From UHGV virus genome UHGV-1360109: a stretch of DNA of 25,357 bases; one strand, written 5' to 3'. This stretch comes from a virus. Positions within the stretch are counted from its first letter, which is position 1, and each line of letters opens with the position of its first letter. The notes beneath the pieces were generated by a model that ran no database searches, was not told the DNA's origin, and worked only from the letters and a program-made list of their open reading frames with translations. Positions 10,490 through 17,129 of this stretch are shown one piece after another. The position numbers and the translations under genes were made by a program.

Positions 10490-11905
10490 ATGGCTACTTG
10501 GCAACAGGGTATTAATTCTGGTGGTTTTCTGGCTGGCATCGGTACGCAAAATGAGAATGCGCCAAAGGCAAGCGACATTAACGCAACGCTTGGTCTGATC
10601 CGCGAAAACAATGAACTGGCTCGATCAGGTGCAAATAACGTTGGTCTGACCGCGTTACGTGGTCTGGCTGGAGTTGCTGATATTTATAAGCAGGAACAGC
10701 AACAGAAAGCTATTAGTGCGTTCAATAAGGTTCACGCTGATGCATGGGCTTCTGGTGATCCATCGGGACTATTTAAGTTTGCCCAGGAAAATCCAGCGTT
10801 TGTTGCACAGGCACAACAGGCGTTTTCCGGTCTTAATGAGCAGCAACGCAACGATATGGGCGAGTTAGCCATGAGGGCTAACGTCGCTCTTTCTCAGGGA
10901 CCGGAAGCCTACAGTAAATTCATTACTGACAACAAGGACGGGTTAAATCGCGTGGGGGCGAATGCTGACTGGATGATTCAGACAGGTATCCAGAATCCAG
11001 AGCAGCTATCACACATGCTGACTACTATGTCTCTCGGTGCGCTTGGACCAGAAAAGGCGTTTGCTGTTCAGGATAAGATGGCTGGTCGTGAAATTGACCG
11101 AGGCAGGCTGGCAGAGACAATCCGCAGCAATCAGGCTGGAGAAGCACTTCAGGCGAGAGGGCAAAACCTTTCCTATCAGTCAGCAATGACTGGACACAAT
11201 ATCGCAGCACAACGCTTGGCTCTGGATCAGCAAGAGTTCGGGTTTAAGATGCAGCAAGCACAGGAAAAGGCTCAGCAGTTGATTAGCGAAGCACCTAAGC
11301 TGTCAGTAAACATGGAAAAAGGCATCGAGACGGCTGTAAACAATGCTACAGCATCATCAAACTCAGCCAATTCTATGAGTGCGCTTGCTCAACAGTTCAG
11401 AGCAGAAAAACCAACGACAGGTTTGTTCGGTAACGCACAGAACATGTTCGCAAAACTTACCGGAAGCGATACAACATTGCGTGATTTGCGCATCCGCCAA
11501 AATGCCCTTGTTAACAGTCAGGTTCTTAAATTCCTACCTCCCGGCCCCGCAACGGATAAAGACGTTGAGATCGTTCGGCAGGGTGCACCAACTGACATGG
11601 ATAACCCTGAGACGGTCGCAAGATGGCTTGATGCGATGGCAAACCTTGAGCGACGAAACGCGCAGTTTAATGAGTTTAAAGCCGAGTGGATGAGCGCGAA
11701 TGGCAATCCAGGACAATCGCGTAATGGCGGTCAGATATTGGGGTTGGATGTTAAAAAAGGTGAATCATTGGGGAGTGCCGTTAAGCGGTATATGTCAATG
11801 AATACTGACGCAGCGCCAGCACAAGATTCGACACCTTCAGGAGAACCACGGAATCAGGTTGGATCATATACCTCAAAATCAGGCATTCAATTTACGGTGG
11901 AATGA
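10490..11905 (+). CDS. ejection protein, P22 gp20-like
   Basis: 471 aa, the same length as P22 gp20; AAGGGG RBS; conserved order. Confidence 0.82.
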
Positions 11906-13743
11906 TGAAAGTAACTGCAAACGGTAAGACATTTACCTTTCCTGATGGTACGAGCACCGAAGATATTGGCACCGCCATTGATGAGTATTTTGCTGGTCAG
12001 GCTGTTCAGCAACAAACAGTTAATCAGGCCAATAATGCACCAACACGGGAAGAACCATCATTGATGCAACAAGCTGGCGATTGGCTCACTGGTGGTCAAA
12101 GTGCAGGGCAAATTGCAGAACAGGCTGGTCGTGGTCTGGTAAACATACCATTTGACGTATTGCAGGGCGGCGCAAGTCTGATTAATGCAATCAGCCAGGG
12201 GCTTGGTGGACCCAAGGTTTTGGATGATGTTTATCGTCCAGTAGACAGACCGACAGACCCCTACGCACAAGCCGGTGAAACAATTGGTGGGTATTTAGTT
12301 CCAGGAGTTGGAACGGCAGGAAGCATGGCTATTGGATCACTGGCAGAGGCCGCAAATCAGAAAGGCGATTTCGCACAAAATGCAGCTAAAAATGCCGGAG
12401 TTAACCTTGCCGCTCAGGGTGTTCTTTCCGCCGCAGCAAAGGGAATAGGGCGTGGAATAACGGCTATAAAAGGTGATATTGCGCCAGAAGTGGCGAAGAA
12501 AATTGCCACATCAGAATCGATGGGCGTGACACCAATGACATCTGATGTTATCCCGCCGAAAAATGCTTTCACTCGCGGCCTTACTCAGGATGCCGAGGGG
12601 GCTTTGCTCGGGACAGGCTCAAAGCGAGCGGAGCAATATGCAACGCGTAGTAAGCTGGTAAGTAATTATTTTGACCGTTTTGGTGAGTACAACCCTGATG
12701 ATGTAGTGAAATCTCTGACCACCACGTTAAGGGGGAGGAAGGATGCCGCTGGCGCTGTTATCAATGACGTCACCAATAAAATGGGTAATGCCGCAGTTGA
12801 TACCACAAATACCATGAATGCTCTGAATACAGCGATCGCAAGACAGGAACGACTTGGGACGTCTGCCAATCAAAGCCTGCTTACATCCTTGCGTAACCTA
12901 CGTGAAGAATTAGCAAACCCTGCAACTGATTTGGATGTTACGTTTGATCTCTTGCGTCAGCACAGAACAGCATTTAGATCTAATGTTCAGGGAGATGCTA
13001 TGGTCTTCCCCAACCAGGCAAAAGCAGCTACCAATATGGTAGAGAATGCAATGTCAAAAGACCTTCGTAACGCAGTTGCTAAAAACCTCGGTGCATCAGA
13101 CGCAGCAAAATACCTTAAAGCAAATTCCGATTATGCAAACGTTTATAATAAGGTGCTTAATAAAAACATTGCTAACAAACTCAACAAGGCAAGCAGTGAA
13201 GCCAGTCCTGAACTTATAAATACCGTTGTATTAAGCAGAAAACCATCTGACGTGAAACGAATCTGGAGCGCACTGGATGATAAAGGGAAAGATGCTATGC
13301 GTGCAGCTTACGTCAGCAAAATAGCGGAAAAGGCCGGTGACTCTCCAGCCAAGTTCATCACTGAAGTTAATAAGCTGAAATCTCAGTCAGGCGGTGAAAT
13401 TTACAACACTATTTTTTCTGGAAAGCACATGAAAGAACTTGATGCTCTTCATGAAGTTCTGCAGCAAACAGCAAGGTCAGACACCGCAAATGTAGTAACT
13501 CAGACGGGGCAATCGCAAGCCAACAGGATAAGGACGATTGGCGCAACTGCGACTCTTGGCGTATCAATGGGGCTTGAGGCTGGTTTCGGTGCAATGATGC
13601 GCTTGTATGAGTCCAAAGCAGCAAGGAATGCGCTCTTACGTCTGGCAAACACCAAAGCAGGAACACCAGCCTATGAAAGAGCGTTGAGTAACGCTGCAAA
13701 TGCCATCAGGCCGCTGCTTGCTACTGAGGCAACACAGCAGTAA
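11902..13743 (+). CDS. ejection protein, P22 gp16-like
   Basis: 613 aa; ATGA overlap with gp20; last gene of the ejection-protein trio. Confidence 0.82.
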
Positions 13744-13767
13744 CGTATGGGGAATTGGATTCAATCG

Positions 13768-14157
13768 TTAACATTTTCTTTTTACTTTTCCAACAAAAGC
13801 TTTGGTTGAATCCATATTCCCATAACCAGAAATGGTTTTTGACATTAAAACTGTTCCAGTAGGATGTATTACCCATGAGTCGATAACGCGTTGAGTTTCG
13901 CCATTCGCGCCGATTCCTATGATGGAGTTTTTAGACAATGCTTTGTAAGCCATGCCGCCCGCATCTGTCCCAGAATATGTGATGCTGGCATCTTCACCGC
14001 TTGTCTTAATGATGAATGTTCCACTAAAACCATCTTCTTCCGGATGGAAATTATTTCGTTCTGAATAGCTTATTCCGCGCATATCTCCAACGACCCAGCA
14101 CTCTGCTGTAGCCCCAAAAGATATGAATAAGAACATAGCAGCAAGAAATTGCTTCAC
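13768..14157 (-). CDS. small exported protein of unknown function (cargo gene)
   Basis: GTG start at 14157 preceded by a perfect TAAGGAGGT SD; N-terminus VKQFLAAMFLFISFGATA|EC is a signal peptide with an A-T-A signal-peptidase site; mature part has Cys near both ends; the longer ORF-track version (to 14373) has an implausible His/Cys-rich extension. Confidence 0.6.
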   Translation of the reverse strand: MKQFLAAMFLFISFGATAECWVVGDMRGISYSERNNFHPEEDGFSGTFIIKTSGEDASITYSGTDAGGMAYKALSKNSIIGIGANGETQRVIDSWVIHPTGTVLMSKTISGYGNMDSTKAFVGKVKRKC

Positions 14158-14187
14158 ACCAACCTCCTTAGTTTTGTGCAGGATACC

Positions 14188-14553
14188 ATGAAAAAAGTTA
14201 ACATTGGAAACGTACCAAAGATGCTCGTTCCGCTCTTTGAGAGCGGTACAATTGTGTTTTGTAGAGACTTTCCAGAATGGCAACGCCTGCATCAAAAACT
14301 TGGTGTGGACGTGCAGGACTCGGACGCCAACGGAGCGTCTCATACAATGAGCAGCGAGAATGGTGTTTTGCATGTGATAGGCGTGTTCAATGGCAAACTA
14401 TCTACTATTGCCCATGAGTGCGCTCACATGGCATTCGATATCTGCTCAAGGGTCGGTGTTGATGTTGAACCAGGAAGAGCCAACGAGACTTACTGCTACT
14501 TAATGAGCAGGCTTGTTGAGTTCTGCGAGCGACATATCAAAAAGCCGGAGTGA
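14188..14553 (+). CDS. small putative zinc metallopeptidase (HExxH motif), family unassigned
   Basis: 121 aa from ATG 14188 (MKKVNIGNVPKMLVPLFESG...); HECAH motif in IAHECAHMAFDICSRVGVDVEPGRANE with Glu 14 and 20 residues downstream; the ORF-track start at 14149 is a TTG. Confidence 0.55.
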   Translation: MKKVNIGNVPKMLVPLFESGTIVFCRDFPEWQRLHQKLGVDVQDSDANGASHTMSSENGVLHVIGVFNGKLSTIAHECAHMAFDICSRVGVDVEPGRANETYCYLMSRLVEFCERHIKKPE

Positions 14554-14566
14554 CCCGGCTTGATTA

Positions 14567-14746
14567 TTACTTTTTGCTGTCTGGAGTTCGCTTATCCAAT
14601 ACCCAGCCATGACCTGGCTTTGTTGTTGGTGGAAGCCTTTCGTTGTCCTTGACGGTGGCAAAATTGTCTTTCTTACCGCCGCGTGGGCCAACTTCTTGGT
14701 ATATTCCGCCGTTTTTTCCTGTGTTTTCACCTGGTTTTTTCGCCAT
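14567..14746 (-). CDS. YjzC-like small protein
   Basis: 59 aa (MAKKPGENTGKNGGIYQEVGPRGGKKDNFATVKDNERLPPTTKPGHGWVLDKRTPDSKK); the G..GIY.EVGP.GG ... LPPT ... W pattern resembles the YjzC-like family as I remember it; GAGGT RBS 7 nt upstream of ATG 14746. Confidence 0.55.
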   Translation of the reverse strand: MAKKPGENTGKNGGIYQEVGPRGGKKDNFATVKDNERLPPTTKPGHGWVLDKRTPDSKK

Positions 14747-14782
14747 GATATACCTCAACATGCACCCGTTATTGGGCGATTA

Positions 14783-14811
14783 AATATTGATCTCATTTTA
14801 TGAGTAGTCAA
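14783..14811 (-). promoter_or_regulatory. candidate sigma70 promoter for the YjzC-like gene with a dyad in the spacer
   Basis: On the minus strand: TTGACT (14811-14806), 17-bp spacer, AATATT (14788-14783); the spacer contains the palindrome CTCAT-TTT-ATGAG (14792-14804). Confidence 0.3.
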
Positions 14812-14837
14812 TATGGTCCAAAAAAGGTAAAAATTAA

Positions 14838-14859
14838 CCCACCGTCAGGTGGGTTTTTT
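14838..14859. terminator. bidirectional rho-independent terminator
   Basis: CCCACC-GTCA-GGTGGG hairpin; T-run on the plus strand (14854-14859) and a U-rich tract on the minus strand (complement of AAAAAGGTAAAAATTAA); lies about 25 nt downstream of the ClpP-like gene stop. Confidence 0.7.
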
Positions 14860-14884
14860 ATAAGGAGTAATCATGATTTACCCA

Positions 14885-15421
14885 TCAAACAACCCACCAG
14901 TTTGCCTGATTGGATGCCAGCCTTGCAGTTTTTATGGAATTAATTATGCCATGCTCAAGAGCCTTGTTAGCATCCAAAATGGTCGAGTCTGCTATCAGGG
15001 ATGCCCACCTAATATGGGTTCCGATGTCGATATTGAACGTCTCAACGAAGCGATCAAGATCGTTATCGAGGCATTTCCCGTACTCTCTCAATCTGGCATG
15101 GTCGGCGGCTGGGGAGGCAAAGCACCATAATAGAGGATGTAACAGGAATCTTGATAATGGGTTTGCGAAACGTTCTGAGCCAGCCAGGAAAACGATATTA
15201 GCTATGGATTCAACATTGCTTATGTTGTGAGTTCTAACGGTAACAGGGAGTGACTTAAGAAAGTTATACGCAGTAAAGCCAGCGGCAGTTTCCCCTCCCT
15301 GACTTGATATATGGATATTTAATTCAGTTGCGCCTTGAGATAATGCGGTGAGACAGTGGTTCTGAAGTTGCCCAACAGTGGCAGTGTTAACGGGGCATAA
15401 GAAATGAATTGTGTGCAGCAT
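14885..15421 (-). CDS. ClpP/SppA-fold serine peptidase homologue (cargo gene, co-transcribed with mnt)
   Basis: 178 aa; ELNIHISSQGGETAAGFTAYNFLKSLPVTVRTHNISNVESIANIVFLAGSERFANPLSRFLLHP aligns by eye with E. coli ClpP [67 protein letters not shown]; candidate nucleophile Ser and His are in place; start ATG shares one base with the mnt stop (TAATG). Confidence 0.75.
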   Translation of the reverse strand: MLHTIHFLCPVNTATVGQLQNHCLTALSQGATELNIHISSQGGETAAGFTAYNFLKSLPVTVRTHNISNVESIANIVFLAGSERFANPLSRFLLHPLLWCFASPAADHARLREYGKCLDNDLDRFVETFNIDIGTHIRWASLIADSTILDANKALEHGIINSIKTARLASNQANWWVV

Positions 15422-15675
15422 TATTTATCATCCTTGCCATAAATCTTTTTAAGTGTCTCAAACACAACGGCCTTGAACTGCTCTGCTTGCTGATCAGCCA
15501 AGCGTTCAGCTTCGTCTCGATAGCCTGCAATCGGTGATGGCTTTGAGAGAGCATCCTGAACGATTTGTAATAACTCAGAGTTCATTGACCTTCCGTTAGC
15601 CTCTGCTCTTAATTTCAATTTTTCTCTTACTTCCAAAGGCATACGGAAGTTAAAGTGCGGATCGTTTCTAGCCAT
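15421..15675 (-). CDS. mnt: Mnt repressor (ribbon-helix-helix)
   Basis: 84 aa; MARNDPHFNFRMPLEVREKLKLRAEANGRSMNSELLQIVQDALSKPSP closely resembles P22 Mnt; GGGGTGA RBS; divergent from arc across the operator region. Confidence 0.92.
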   Translation of the reverse strand: MARNDPHFNFRMPLEVREKLKLRAEANGRSMNSELLQIVQDALSKPSPIAGYRDEAERLADQQAEQFKAVVFETLKKIYGKDDK

Positions 15676-15697
15676 GCCATCACCCCAAGTTAGTGTA

Positions 15698-15751
15698 TTG
15701 ACATGATAGAAGCACTCTACTATGTTCTCAATAGGTCCACAGTGGACCTAT
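15698..15751. promoter_or_regulatory. immI control region: Pant promoter with arc and mnt operators
   Basis: TTGACA (15698-15703), 17-bp spacer, TATGTT (15721-15726); arc-operator-like ATGATAGAAGCACTCTACTAT (15703-15723); perfect 21-bp palindrome ATAGGTCCAC-A-GTGGACCTAT (15731-15751) matching the P22 mnt operator. Confidence 0.85.
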
Positions 15752-15765
15752 ATTGTGAGGTAAAT

Positions 15766-15924
15766 ATGAAAGGAATGAGCAAAATGCCGCAGTTCAATTT
15801 GCGGTGGCCTAAAGAAGTATTGGATTTGGTGCGTAAGGTGGCGGAAGAGAACGGGCGATCTGTTAACTCTGAGATTTACAAGCGAGTGTTGGACAGCCTG
15901 AAGAGAGAGGGGATAACGGTATGA
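15766..15924 (+). CDS. arc: Arc repressor (ribbon-helix-helix)
   Basis: 52 aa from ATG 15766 (MKGMSKMPQFNLRWPKEVLDLVRKVAEENGRSVNSEIYKRVLDSLKREGITV), close to P22 Arc; GAGG RBS; the ORF-track start at 15703 is an upstream extension running through the operators. Confidence 0.92.
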   Translation: MKGMSKMPQFNLRWPKEVLDLVRKVAEENGRSVNSEIYKRVLDSLKREGITV

Positions 15925-16142
15925 GGTTTATTGAGGTTGATGAGATTGGCTATGAGAATGCACTTGGTAGAGGTAAATCTTTAGTTAACATTGATGGCAT
16001 TGAATCGATAAGGAGTGGTGAATTTACGGAGATCAGAATGATGTCAGGCGGAATCATTCCTTGCCGTGATTCAGTAGAGTCAATCAAATCAAAAATGAGT
16101 GGTCAGTGGCTTTATAGCTACAGTGACTTACAAAAACAGTGA
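15921..16142 (+). CDS. small hypothetical protein inserted between arc and ant
   Basis: 73 aa; ATG 15921 overlaps the arc stop (ATGA); no family recognised; arc and ant are adjacent in P22. Confidence 0.5.
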   Translation: MRFIEVDEIGYENALGRGKSLVNIDGIESIRSGEFTEIRMMSGGIIPCRDSVESIKSKMSGQWLYSYSDLQKQ

Positions 16143-16205
16143 AGCCCCAACTGCGGTAACAGTCAGGGCTTCGGTATCGTAAAACCACGCATAGGAATTA
16201 ACGAC

Positions 16206-17129
16206 ATGACGAGTGTAGCAATTGCAGAACATACAATCAACGTTCCATTCCACGGAACAAATCTCTTTTTGGTCAGCATTAACAATGAACCTTACGTTCC
16301 TATGAAACCCGTTGTAGAAGGCATGGGTATGGTTTGGGCTGCTCAATTTGTTAAATTAAAACAGAGATTTGTCAAAGGTATTTCGGAAATCGAAATACCT
16401 TCTGCTGGCGGTAAACAGTTAATGATATGCCTTGCCTTTCGTAAGTTTGCGGCTTGGCTTTCAAGCATTCAGCCAAACAAAGTCCGCCCTGAAATCCGCG
16501 ACAAGGTAATCCAGTATCAGGAAGAGTGTGACGATGTGCTCTACGAGTACTGGACTAAAGGCTATGTAGTTAACCCACGCAAATCTAAAAAGGCGTTGCC
16601 GGGTAAAATCACCACTGAACAGCAGGAAGCCATTAAACAACTCGTCATGAGTCGCGGTCAGTCTCTGCCAAAAGAAAAACAGGCTAAGGCGATGATCACC
16701 ATGTGGTCGTCACTGAAATCCCATTTTGGATGTTCGTACAAAGAAATCAGTGAGGAGCAGTTTACAGAAGCACTGTCACTTGCAGCTCGAGTTCCGCTTG
16801 AAGGTGAGTTCATCGGCAAACAAGAGAAGAAAACCAACGAGCTTTCTGCAAAAGAAGCAAACAGCCTTGTATGGTTATGGGATTATGCCAACCGCTCACA
16901 GGCATTATTCCGCGAACTGTATCCGGCGCTAAAACAAATTCAATCGAACTATTCCGGCAGATGCTACGACTACGGTCATGAATTCTCGTATGTTATCGGA
17001 ATGGCGAGAGATGTTTTAATCAACCATACACGAGATGTTGATATTAATGAGCCAGACGGACCAACGAATCTTTCCGCATGGATGAGACTTAAGAATAAAG
17101 AATTACCTCCTTCAGTACATAACTACTGA
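16206..17129 (+). CDS. ant: antirepressor Ant
   Basis: 307 aa, close to P22 Ant (300 aa); position after arc; AGGA RBS; followed by a strong terminator. Confidence 0.82.

What the first reader, a model, noticed from the sequence alone, without database searches (positions are those of the whole stretch)
14188..14553. Small HExxH protein: possible minimal zinc peptidase in the immunity region
A 121-aa protein carries HECAH with Glu residues 14 and 20 positions downstream, the arrangement of a minimal gluzincin-type metal site. It is on the late-transcript strand, convergent with the YjzC-like gene and divergent from the exported-protein gene with only about 30 bp between start codons. A small metallopeptidase beside a repressor/antirepressor switch recalls ImmA/IrrE-type repressor-cleaving proteases; that link is speculation.
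Basis: partly seen in the sequence, partly recalled or inferred. Interest (0 to 1): 0.6.

Follow-up and report, generated by a model that had tools for sequence, protein, structure and literature searches.

The report
Tiny phage zinc-protease-like gene hkcC
The 121-residue protein is the long-known but uncharacterised hkcC gene of phages P22 and HK620, and it has the conserved signature of a miniature zinc protease. It is not linked to the repressor switch; it usually travels paired with a small antisense gene.

Summary
ORF 14188-14553(+) encodes 121 aa with HECAH at residues 76-80 and Glu at +14 (E94) and +20 (E100). It is 100% identical to HkcC of P22 and HK620 (phrog_1365), whose function is unknown.

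The family is large: 526 clusters at 50% identity. Across 117 members, down to about 24% identity, the only invariant residues are H76, E77, H80 and E100. E94 is not conserved. The AlphaFold model (pLDDT 88.6) has a zincin-like order: strand, strand, helix, strand, strand, HExxH helix, Glu helix. It has no significant match to any solved structure, and no Pfam family reaches threshold. I read it as an unclassified minimal gluzincin-type metallohydrolase.

The ImmA/IrrE repressor-protease idea is not supported:
- There is no M78 signal.
- HK620 keeps an identical hkcC with only remnants of mnt and ant.
- Homologues sit in siphovirus tail modules, between lysis and terminase genes, and in virulent N4-like phages.

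New here: hkcC plus the convergent YjzC-like orf59a form a roughly 0.7 kb cassette. The pair is present in 52 of 52 cultured P22-like phages, 69 of 80 IMG/VR loci and 9 of 11 divergent contexts. The layout resembles known defence/counter-defence pairs split across strands. The substrate is unknown.

The parts
14188..14553 (+). hkcC coding sequence (121 aa), a minimal gluzincin-like protein on the late-operon strand
   Evidence: ORF and sequence. 100% identical to HkcC of P22 and HK620. phrog_1365 at E=1.4e-39. 526 family clusters. AF2 pLDDT 88.6.
14413..14427 (+). Codons for H76-E77-C78-A79-H80, the HExxH motif on helix 71-88
   Evidence: H76, E77 and H80 are invariant in 117 homologues. Helix assignment.
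14482..14487 (+). Codons for N99-E100, the putative third metal ligand at the start of helix 100-116, 20 residues after H80
   Evidence: E100 is invariant and N99 nearly so. It aligns in register with thermolysin N165-E166.
14542..14561 (.). Bidirectional terminator hairpin shared by hkcC and orf59a; it overlaps the hkcC stop codon
   Evidence: Terminator scan on both strands. Annotated as the bidirectional tORF59A in HK620 and as t mnt in P22.
14567..14746 (-). orf59a (HkcD), a 59-aa YjzC-like protein and the convergent partner of hkcC
   Evidence: Weak Pfam YjzC hit, phrog_3202 at E=1.3e-31. A homologous 59-aa gene lies immediately downstream and convergent in 9 of 11 divergent hkcC contexts. 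Co-descent: Mantel r=0.83, p=0.001.
14783..14811 (-). Sigma-70-like promoter candidate for orf59a (TTGACT-17-AATATT)
   Evidence: Consensus scan only, 9 of 12 matches. It lies inside the block conserved with P22. Not shown to function.
14836..14855 (.). Second bidirectional hairpin at the right edge of the conserved hkcC-orf59a block
   Evidence: Terminator scan. Nucleotide homology to P22-like phages ends at about 14859-14862.
14155..14859 (.). Conserved mosaic block of about 705 bp carrying hkcC and orf59a. Its left edge abuts the start codon of the variable antisense gene. In a minority of loci a sub-boundary at 14575 separates hkcC from orf59a.
   Evidence: 97.6-98.2% nucleotide identity to P22, ST160, SE1 and others over exactly this span. 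In 11 of 80 loci homology stops at 14575.
13768..14157 (-). Variable left-slot antisense gene, divergent from hkcC. Here it encodes an exported protein (phrog_2651). The same slot holds sieA in P22, hkcB in HK620 and Rap1a-like or small membrane proteins elsewhere.
   Evidence: It is flanking context and not shown to depend on hkcC.

Best explanation
The ORF is hkcC, a real, strongly conserved accessory gene of P22-like phages. It most likely encodes a soluble cytoplasmic, single-domain zinc metallohydrolase of the gluzincin type. In this reading H76 and H80 on one helix and E100 on the next bind the metal, and E77 acts as the catalytic base. At 121 aa it would be among the smallest proteins of this kind, and it belongs to a large phage-specific family that no curated library classifies. 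It lies on the late-operon strand with no promoter-like site of its own, so it is probably made by late read-through transcription during lytic growth. It is flanked on both sides by antisense genes of moron type (self-contained accessory units). Its usual partner is the convergent 59-aa YjzC-like orf59a, with which it has been inherited as one cassette of about 0.7 kb across podovirus and siphovirus genomes. The most likely role is cleavage of one specific protein during lytic development. The two leading candidate substrates are the phage's own lysogeny-expressed Orf59a, which would avoid self-interference as in defence/counter-defence pairs arranged as non-contiguous operons, or a host factor such as a defence protein. 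What is shown: gene identity, motif invariance, predicted topology, cassette linkage, and independence from mnt/arc/ant. What is inferred: metal binding, peptidase activity, late expression and the substrate.
For: Identity: 100% identical to HkcC of P22 and HK620; phrog_1365 at E=1.4e-39; described in the literature as of unknown function (PMC2629481, PMC4837284). Catalytic signature: only H76, E77, H80 and E100 are invariant in 117 homologues at 24-74% identity; 170 of 177 retrieved family proteins carry H[ED]xxH, and the exceptions are frameshifted or truncated. Structure: AF2 pLDDT 88.6, pTM 0.83, with order strand-strand-helix-strand-strand-helix(HExxH)-helix(E100). Similarity to gluzincins: the best PDB sequence hits are thermolysin-family proteases, with HExxH and NE in register. 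hhalign of the family profile against that thermolysin-like core segment gives 64.6% probability over 44 columns. Foldseek finds 24 phage proteins at E<=1e-3, a few named SprT-like or Metalloprotease. Accessory and late position: same strand as genes 20 and 16 and the tailspike gene, and no + strand promoter-like site upstream. Paralogues (ST64T/L orf129, mEp021 gp49) lie between the lysis genes and terminase. Cassette: orf59a is convergent and adjacent in 52 of 52 cultured P22-like phages, 69 of 80 IMG/VR loci and 9 of 11 divergent contexts, including Klebsiella and Rosenbergiella siphovirus tail modules. The identity matrices of the two proteins correlate (Mantel r=0.83, p=0.001). Precedent for an antisense prophage-expressed gene next to a late-strand counter-gene: Tai/Ati of phi80 (PMC11364771).
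Confidence: 0.55

Rival explanations
1. ImmA/IrrE-type anti-repressor protease. HkcC would cleave Mnt, Arc or the c2 repressor to flip the immunity switch.
For: It has HExxH plus a downstream Glu, as M78 enzymes do, and it lies within about 1 kb of mnt/arc/ant in this window and in P22. Foldseek gives faint matches to two viral models named IrrE (E=0.025-0.044, TM 0.2-0.4).
Against: No PF06114 hit for the protein. None of the 117 relatives matches it at E<=0.1, and one longer member scores only 0.099. The neighbours are ribbon-helix-helix repressors, not the XRE-type partner typical of ImmA. HK620 keeps a 100% identical hkcC with only remnants of mnt and ant. Homologues lie in siphovirus tail modules, lysis-terminase gaps and virulent N4-like phages. 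In 80 loci the presence of mnt, arc and ant varies freely around a constant hkcC.
Confidence: 0.03
2. SprT/Spartan/Wss1-like DNA-associated protease that removes proteins bound or crosslinked to phage DNA.
For: 19 of 117 family members give sub-threshold PF10263 hits, best E=1e-4. The best solved zincin by Foldseek is the SPRTN SprT domain. Two BFVD matches are named SprT-like.
Against: The window protein has no PF10263 hit. The member hits cover only the HExxH stretch. hhalign of the family profile against E. coli SprT gives 5.5% probability and does not align the motif. The third ligand is Glu, not the His of SprT and Wss1, and there is no zinc ribbon or DNA-binding module.
Confidence: 0.08
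3. Counter-defence or host-takeover protease aimed at a host protein, unrelated to orf59a. The linkage to orf59a would then be only co-transfer of neighbouring accessory genes.
For: The family is spread over temperate and virulent phages, with a patchy accessory distribution. It includes clusters of small genes in N4-like phages. hkcC persists unchanged where orf59a has been replaced. Some phages carry two paralogues.
Against: No hit to any known defence or anti-defence model (PADLOC). Nothing was found in the literature searched. The pairing with orf59a persists down to 43% identity and across phage types, which chance adjacency explains poorly.
Confidence: 0.25
4. No catalytic role. The sequence would be conserved mainly as a DNA linker carrying the divergent promoter (PsieA in P22) and the bidirectional terminator, or the protein would be a non-enzymatic metal-binding adaptor.
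For: The P22 annotation places PsieA inside the first 31 bp of hkcC and a terminator over its stop codon. The left mosaic boundary (14147-14155) coincides with the start codon of the variable antisense gene. Identity is 98-100% across phages with different flanks.
Against: Distant homologues (24-40% identity) in unrelated contexts keep the reading frame, the length and exactly the H-E-H-E residues. DNA-level constraints cannot explain that pattern.
Confidence: 0.07

Closest known systems
Thermolysin-type gluzincins (MEROPS M4) and gluzincins in general
   Same: An HExxH helix is followed by a second helix that starts with N-E exactly 20 residues after the second His. The alignment is in register over the helix-loop-helix. 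The strand and helix order before the motif is also the same (the comparison with zincin architecture is from my own knowledge).
   Different: HkcC is 121 aa against about 316 aa. It has no C-terminal domain, no equivalents of thermolysin's Tyr157 and His231, and no pro-peptide or secretion signal. Thermolysin's Asp170 position is a near-invariant Tyr (Y104). The sequence similarity is not statistically significant in a database search (E=0.1-1.3).
Minigluzincins and selecase (archaeal metallopeptidases of about 105-110 aa such as proabylysin and projannalysin; recalled from memory)
   Same: Stand-alone soluble HExxH+E proteins of about 100-120 aa, representing the minimal zincin scaffold.
SprT-like / Spartan / Wss1 (PF10263)
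   Same: A small zincin core. These give the only recurrent, though weak, Pfam signal among family members and the best solved zincin by Foldseek.
   Different: The third ligand is Glu, not His, and there is no zinc ribbon. The profile comparison with E. coli SprT fails.
ImmA/IrrE (Peptidase_M78)
   Same: HExxH plus a downstream Glu; found on mobile elements.
   Different: No profile match, no cognate XRE repressor next door, and retention that is independent of the immunity genes.
Tai/Ati non-contiguous operon of phage phi80 (PMC11364771)
   Same: Gene architecture only: an antisense, prophage-expressed gene embedded in the late operon next to a late-strand gene that counteracts it during lytic growth.
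   Different: No homology. AtiEcA is 76 aa and gives hhalign probability 0.3% against the family. TaiEcA is unrelated to the left-slot protein here; it was not compared with Orf59a. Ati is proposed to act by binding, not proteolysis. No function is known for Orf59a.

Membership tests
Zincin / gluzincin metallopeptidases (clan MA) | HExxH motif within an alpha-helix | tested here: met
   H76-E77-x-x-H80 lies in predicted helix 71-88 and is invariant in 117 homologues.
Zincin / gluzincin metallopeptidases (clan MA) | Third metal ligand Glu on the following helix | tested here: met
   E100 is invariant, lies at the start of helix 100-116 and is +20 from H80, the thermolysin spacing.
Zincin / gluzincin metallopeptidases (clan MA) | Zincin fold: beta-sheet with an edge strand, a backing helix and the active-site helix | tested here: inconclusive
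Zincin / gluzincin metallopeptidases (clan MA) | Zinc binding and peptide-bond hydrolysis | not testable with these tools
   Requires biochemistry.
ImmA/IrrE (Peptidase_M78, PF06114) | Profile match to the M78 domain | tested here: not met
   No hit at E<=1 for the protein. None of the 117 relatives hits at E<=0.1. The IrrE-named viral folds match only at TM 0.2-0.4.
ImmA/IrrE (Peptidase_M78, PF06114) | Encoded next to, and acting on, a cognate repressor | tested here: not met
   Linkage to mnt, arc and ant is variable. HK620 has hkcC without them. Other contexts are tail modules and lysis-terminase gaps.
SprT-like (PF10263) | Profile match above the gathering score | tested here: not met
   No hit for the window protein. 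19 of 117 members give only sub-threshold, motif-level hits. hhalign against E. coli SprT gives 5.5%.
SprT-like (PF10263) | His as third ligand, and an accessory zinc-ribbon or DNA-binding region | tested here: not met
   No conserved His lies downstream of HExxH; the invariant residue is E100. The protein ends 21 residues after it.
Thermolysin family M4 | HExxH-19-NExxSD plus a C-terminal helical domain with transition-state residues | tested here: not met
   Only HExxH-19-NE is shared. The Asp position is Tyr104, and the protein has no C-terminal domain.
Defence/counter-defence non-contiguous operon (Tai/Ati type) | An antisense gene interrupting the late operon, adjacent to a late-strand gene | tested here: met
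   orf59a and the left-slot gene are antisense while hkcC is on the late strand. The pairing recurs across phage types.
Defence/counter-defence non-contiguous operon (Tai/Ati type) | The antisense gene confers phage resistance and the late-strand gene neutralises it | not testable with these tools
   No functional data exist for Orf59a or HkcC. There is no homology to Tai or Ati.

The most novel reading that the evidence does not exclude
HkcC and Orf59a form a two-gene module in which a YjzC-like protein, expressed from the prophage on the antisense strand, acts as an interference or defence factor. The miniature zinc protease, made only from the late operon, would destroy it (or a complex it forms) so that the phage escapes its own weapon. 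This would be a proteolytic version of the self-immunity logic seen in Tai/Ati and BstA/aba. The wider HkcC family would then be a pool of very small phage proteases with switchable targets.
Probability: 0.15. Interest if true: 0.75.

Novelty: new variant of a known kind. Interest (0 to 1): 0.45.

Why it matters
P22 is one of the best-studied phages, yet hkcC and orf59a have had no assigned function since they were named. A family-wide invariant HExxH...E signature turns "hypothetical protein" into a directly testable enzyme hypothesis. At 121 aa it would be one of the smallest metallopeptidase scaffolds known. The family is large (526 clusters at 50% identity), phage-specific and missing from curated libraries, so one characterised member would annotate many genes. 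About 8.5% of complete E. coli genomes (461 of 5,426) match at least part of the 2 kb region around hkcC. The conserved pairing with an antisense YjzC-like gene also gives a concrete candidate substrate or partner to test.

Tried and rejected
- Pfam, NCBIfam and PADLOC gave no family for HkcC. The lantibiotic hits are composition artefacts around 'HEC'.
- hhalign of the family profile against E. coli SprT failed.
- I tried to model an HkcC-linker-Orf59a fusion with a paired alignment to test for an interface.
- I tested whether phi80 AtiEcA or TaiEcA are homologues of HkcC or of the left-slot protein. They are not.
- I checked whether YjzC-like genes in Firmicutes phages have an HkcC-like neighbour. 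In phiCT9441A the convergent 110-aa ORF has no HExxH.
- I looked for a consistent antisense partner next to the orf129-type paralogues. The candidate antisense ORFs have no PHROG support and are probably spurious.
- Literature searches for hkcC, orf59a, phrog_1365, YjzC and phage SprT-like or HExxH anti-defence found no functional study.
- The conserved Cys residues (C25, C78, C86, C103) were considered as a second metal site. I rejected this because they are Leu, Ala or Ile in the wider family (HELAH, HEAAH).

Full report
**1. What is there**

The window is the late operon of a P22-like prophage:
- terminase, portal, scaffold, coat, gp4/10/26/14/7/20 and gp16 (11902-13743);
- the immI-type region: mnt 15421-15675(-), arc, and ant 16206-17129;
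- then the tailspike gene.

The finding is ORF 14188-14553(+), 121 aa, with an ATG start and AGGA 5 nt upstream.

The gene is convergent with a 59-aa YjzC-like gene. That gene's likely start is ATG 14746, and it ends at 14567. The two share the bidirectional hairpin 14542-14561, which overlaps the hkcC stop codon.

The gene is divergent from an exported-protein gene (phrog_2651). That gene probably starts at GTG 14157 behind an AAGGAGG site, so 30 bp separate the two start codons.

**2. Identity**

The protein is 100% identical to the product of hkcC in P22 and HK620. Two genome papers list hkcC and orf59a as genes of unknown function (PMC2629481; PMC4837284). Several reference P22 records do not annotate a coding sequence here at all; they show only 'PsieA' and 't mnt'. 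One record calls it a GNAT acetyltransferase, a label that no family search here reproduced. It belongs to phrog_1365, function unknown. Pfam, NCBIfam and PADLOC give no family.

**3. Is the motif meaningful?**

By itself it is weak evidence. HExxH occurs in 1.8% of shuffles of this protein, although it is the only HExxH in a real ORF of the window. Conservation settles the question.

An exhaustive profile search found 526 clusters at 50% identity (133 at E<=1e-10), nearly all 100-140 aa. In an alignment of 117 of them, 24-74% identical to the query, the only invariant columns are H76, E77, H80 and E100. G49, G90 and Y104 are conserved in at least 90%. Family proteins lacking the motif are frameshifted or truncated. 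E94 varies even among close relatives. The conserved Cys residues of the close clade are Leu, Ala or Ile elsewhere, so they are core residues and not ligands.

**4. Fold and family**

The AlphaFold2 model is confident: pLDDT 88.6, pTM 0.83. Its order is strand 11-13, strand 21-25, helix 28-37, strands 49-56 and 59-66, helix 71-88 (HExxH) and helix 100-116 (starting at E100). From general knowledge of metallopeptidase architecture, this is the order of the minimal zincin catalytic core.

Automated fold searches do not confirm it against solved structures:
- In Foldseek against the PDB, the best zincin is the SPRTN SprT domain at E=0.14 and TM 0.31.
- Against predicted viral structures there are 24 matches at E<=1e-3 with TM up to 0.82. 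All are small phage proteins, mostly unnamed; two are named SprT-like and one, slightly weaker at E=1.6e-3, is named Metalloprotease. IrrE-named models match only at TM 0.2-0.4.

At sequence level:
- The best PDB hits are thermolysin-family proteases, aligned from the strand before the motif through HExxH to N-E in exact register, but at E=0.1-1.3.
- hhalign of the family profile against that thermolysin-like core gives 64.6% probability. This comparison was chosen after the fact.
- Against E. coli SprT the probability is 5.5%, with the motif unaligned.
- 19 of 117 members give sub-threshold SprT-like Pfam hits confined to the motif, and none hits Peptidase_M78.

My conclusion is that this is an unclassified family with a gluzincin-type site. 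It is not a member of M78, SprT-like or M4.

**5. Context: the repressor link fails**

HK620 carries an identical hkcC and orf59a (HkcD) but only remnants of mnt and ant. In 80 IMG/VR loci with hkcC at 99% identity or more, everything around it varies:
- the gene on its left: sieA, hkcB, the exported protein, or others;
- the presence of mnt, arc and ant;
- the ClpP-like gene.

Homologues at 43-77% identity sit in siphovirus prophages between the tail tube or chaperone genes and the tape-measure gene (Klebsiella, Rosenbergiella and metagenomes). They also occur in other prophages of Xenorhabdus, Proteus and Pasteurellaceae.

A paralogue clade at about 38% identity includes ST64T/L orf129, epsilon34 gp70 and mEp021 gp49. 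It lies between the lysis genes and the small terminase gene. Some P22-like phages carry both copies. More distant members lie in clusters of small genes in virulent N4-like phages. None of this fits a protease dedicated to Mnt, Arc or C2.

**6. A conserved two-gene cassette**

Nucleotide homology to P22-like phages spans exactly 14155-14859. That block holds hkcC, the shared terminator, orf59a, a promoter-like site for orf59a (14811-14783 on the minus strand) and a second hairpin (14836-14855).

A homologous 59-aa gene lies convergent and within about 15-30 bp of hkcC in all of these:
- 52 of 52 cultured P22-like phages;
- 69 of 80 IMG/VR loci;
- 9 of 11 divergent contexts.

The exceptions among the divergent contexts are Moraxella and a decayed Arsenophonus locus. 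Pairwise identities of the two proteins across ten lineages correlate (Mantel r=0.83, p=0.001). This shows co-descent as a unit; it does not show physical interaction.

The link is not absolute:
- In 11 of 80 loci homology stops at 14575, and a 74-aa two-transmembrane antisense gene replaces orf59a.
- Distant family members lack orf59a.
- YjzC-like genes stand alone as antisense accessory genes in Firmicutes phages.

**7. Likely mechanism**

Shown:
- a conserved H-E-H...E site on two consecutive predicted helices;
- no signal peptide or transmembrane segment evident in the sequence (read directly from the translation);
- a late-strand location;
- antisense neighbours.

Inferred: the protein binds zinc through H76, H80 and E100, uses E77 as the general base, and cleaves a specific protein in the cytoplasm when the late operon is transcribed. 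No promoter-like site lies upstream on its strand, and in P22 late transcription reads through this region (established knowledge).

The architecture is an antisense, presumably lysogen-expressed gene next to a late-strand gene. That is the 'non-contiguous operon' layout shown for the Tai defence and Ati counter-defence genes of phi80 (PMC11364771), although there is no homology. By analogy, Orf59a is the leading candidate substrate or partner. A host target, independent of orf59a, is the main alternative.

My estimates are:

| Claim | Probability |
|---|---|
| Metal-dependent hydrolase | about 0.7 |
| Functional coupling with Orf59a | about 0.4-0.5 |
| Proteolytic self-immunity against Orf59a specifically | about 0.15 |

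**8. Novelty and verdict**

The gene is known and named. Its reading as a conserved miniature gluzincin and its pairing with orf59a were not found in the literature available here. It is best rated as a new variant of a known kind: a zincin metallohydrolase from an unclassified phage family of very small size. Interest is moderate.

Noticed in passing
window 14885-15421 (-): A 178-aa ClpP-like serine protease gene (PF00574 at E=2e-11; weak head-maturation-protease PHROG hits). It lies directly downstream of the mnt-like gene and overlaps it by 1 nt, so it is probably co-transcribed with it and ends at hairpin 14836-14855. It is absent from P22 and HK620, present in 5 of 80 IMG/VR hkcC loci, and annotated as ClpP in E. 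coli prophages.
   Followed up: partly
window 14147-14220: The left edge of the block conserved among P22-like phages falls at the start codon (GTG 14157) of the variable antisense gene. P22 annotation places PsieA inside the first 31 bp of hkcC. The 5' end of hkcC therefore seems to supply a common promoter and ribosome-binding site for interchangeable antisense genes: sieA, hkcB, the phrog_2651 exported protein, Rap1a-like proteins and small membrane proteins.
   Followed up: partly
L026 3380-3815 (and 10 other IMG/VR loci): In 11 of 80 loci orf59a is replaced, just past the shared terminator (window 14575), by a 74-aa two-transmembrane antisense ORF. A 61-aa ORF follows it on the + strand; RefSeq annotates an XhlA-family gene in a related E. 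coli locus.
   Followed up: partly
L014 3501-3890 (ST64T orf129); L015; L016 3477-4061: A paralogous HkcC clade (about 38% identity) sits between the Rz/Rz1 lysis genes and the small terminase gene, next to phrog_571 and dec. Several P22-like phages carry both paralogues. mEp021 gp49 has a C-terminal extension of about 70 aa.
   Followed up: partly
L023 1330-1968; L024 1229-1867: In the metagenomic contigs with the 43%-identical cassette, the next gene is a 212-aa protein of Pfam PhageMetallopep (PF18894). That puts a second, unrelated metallopeptidase-like gene beside the cassette.
   Followed up: no
window 13600-16300: Terminator-like hairpins are about five times more frequent than in shuffles (11 against 2.2 +/- 1.4). 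Several are bidirectional and lie at gene-module boundaries, consistent with a region built from self-contained accessory units.
   Followed up: no
L107 2486-2653 (Clostridium phage phiCT9441A): A YjzC-family gene lies antisense inside the head-morphogenesis cluster of a Clostridium tetani phage. YjzC-like proteins therefore recur as antisense accessory genes in unrelated phages, without an HkcC partner.
   Followed up: partly
window 15921-16142 (+): A 73-aa ORF lies between arc and ant, where P22 has the sar antisense RNA region. Its identity was not examined.
   Followed up: no
KR296688.1 (L002 3034-3399); BK000583.1 and AF527608.1: Public annotation of this gene is inconsistent. One record calls it a 'GNAT family acetyltransferase', which no family search here reproduced. 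Two reference P22 records carry no coding sequence for it.
   Followed up: yes
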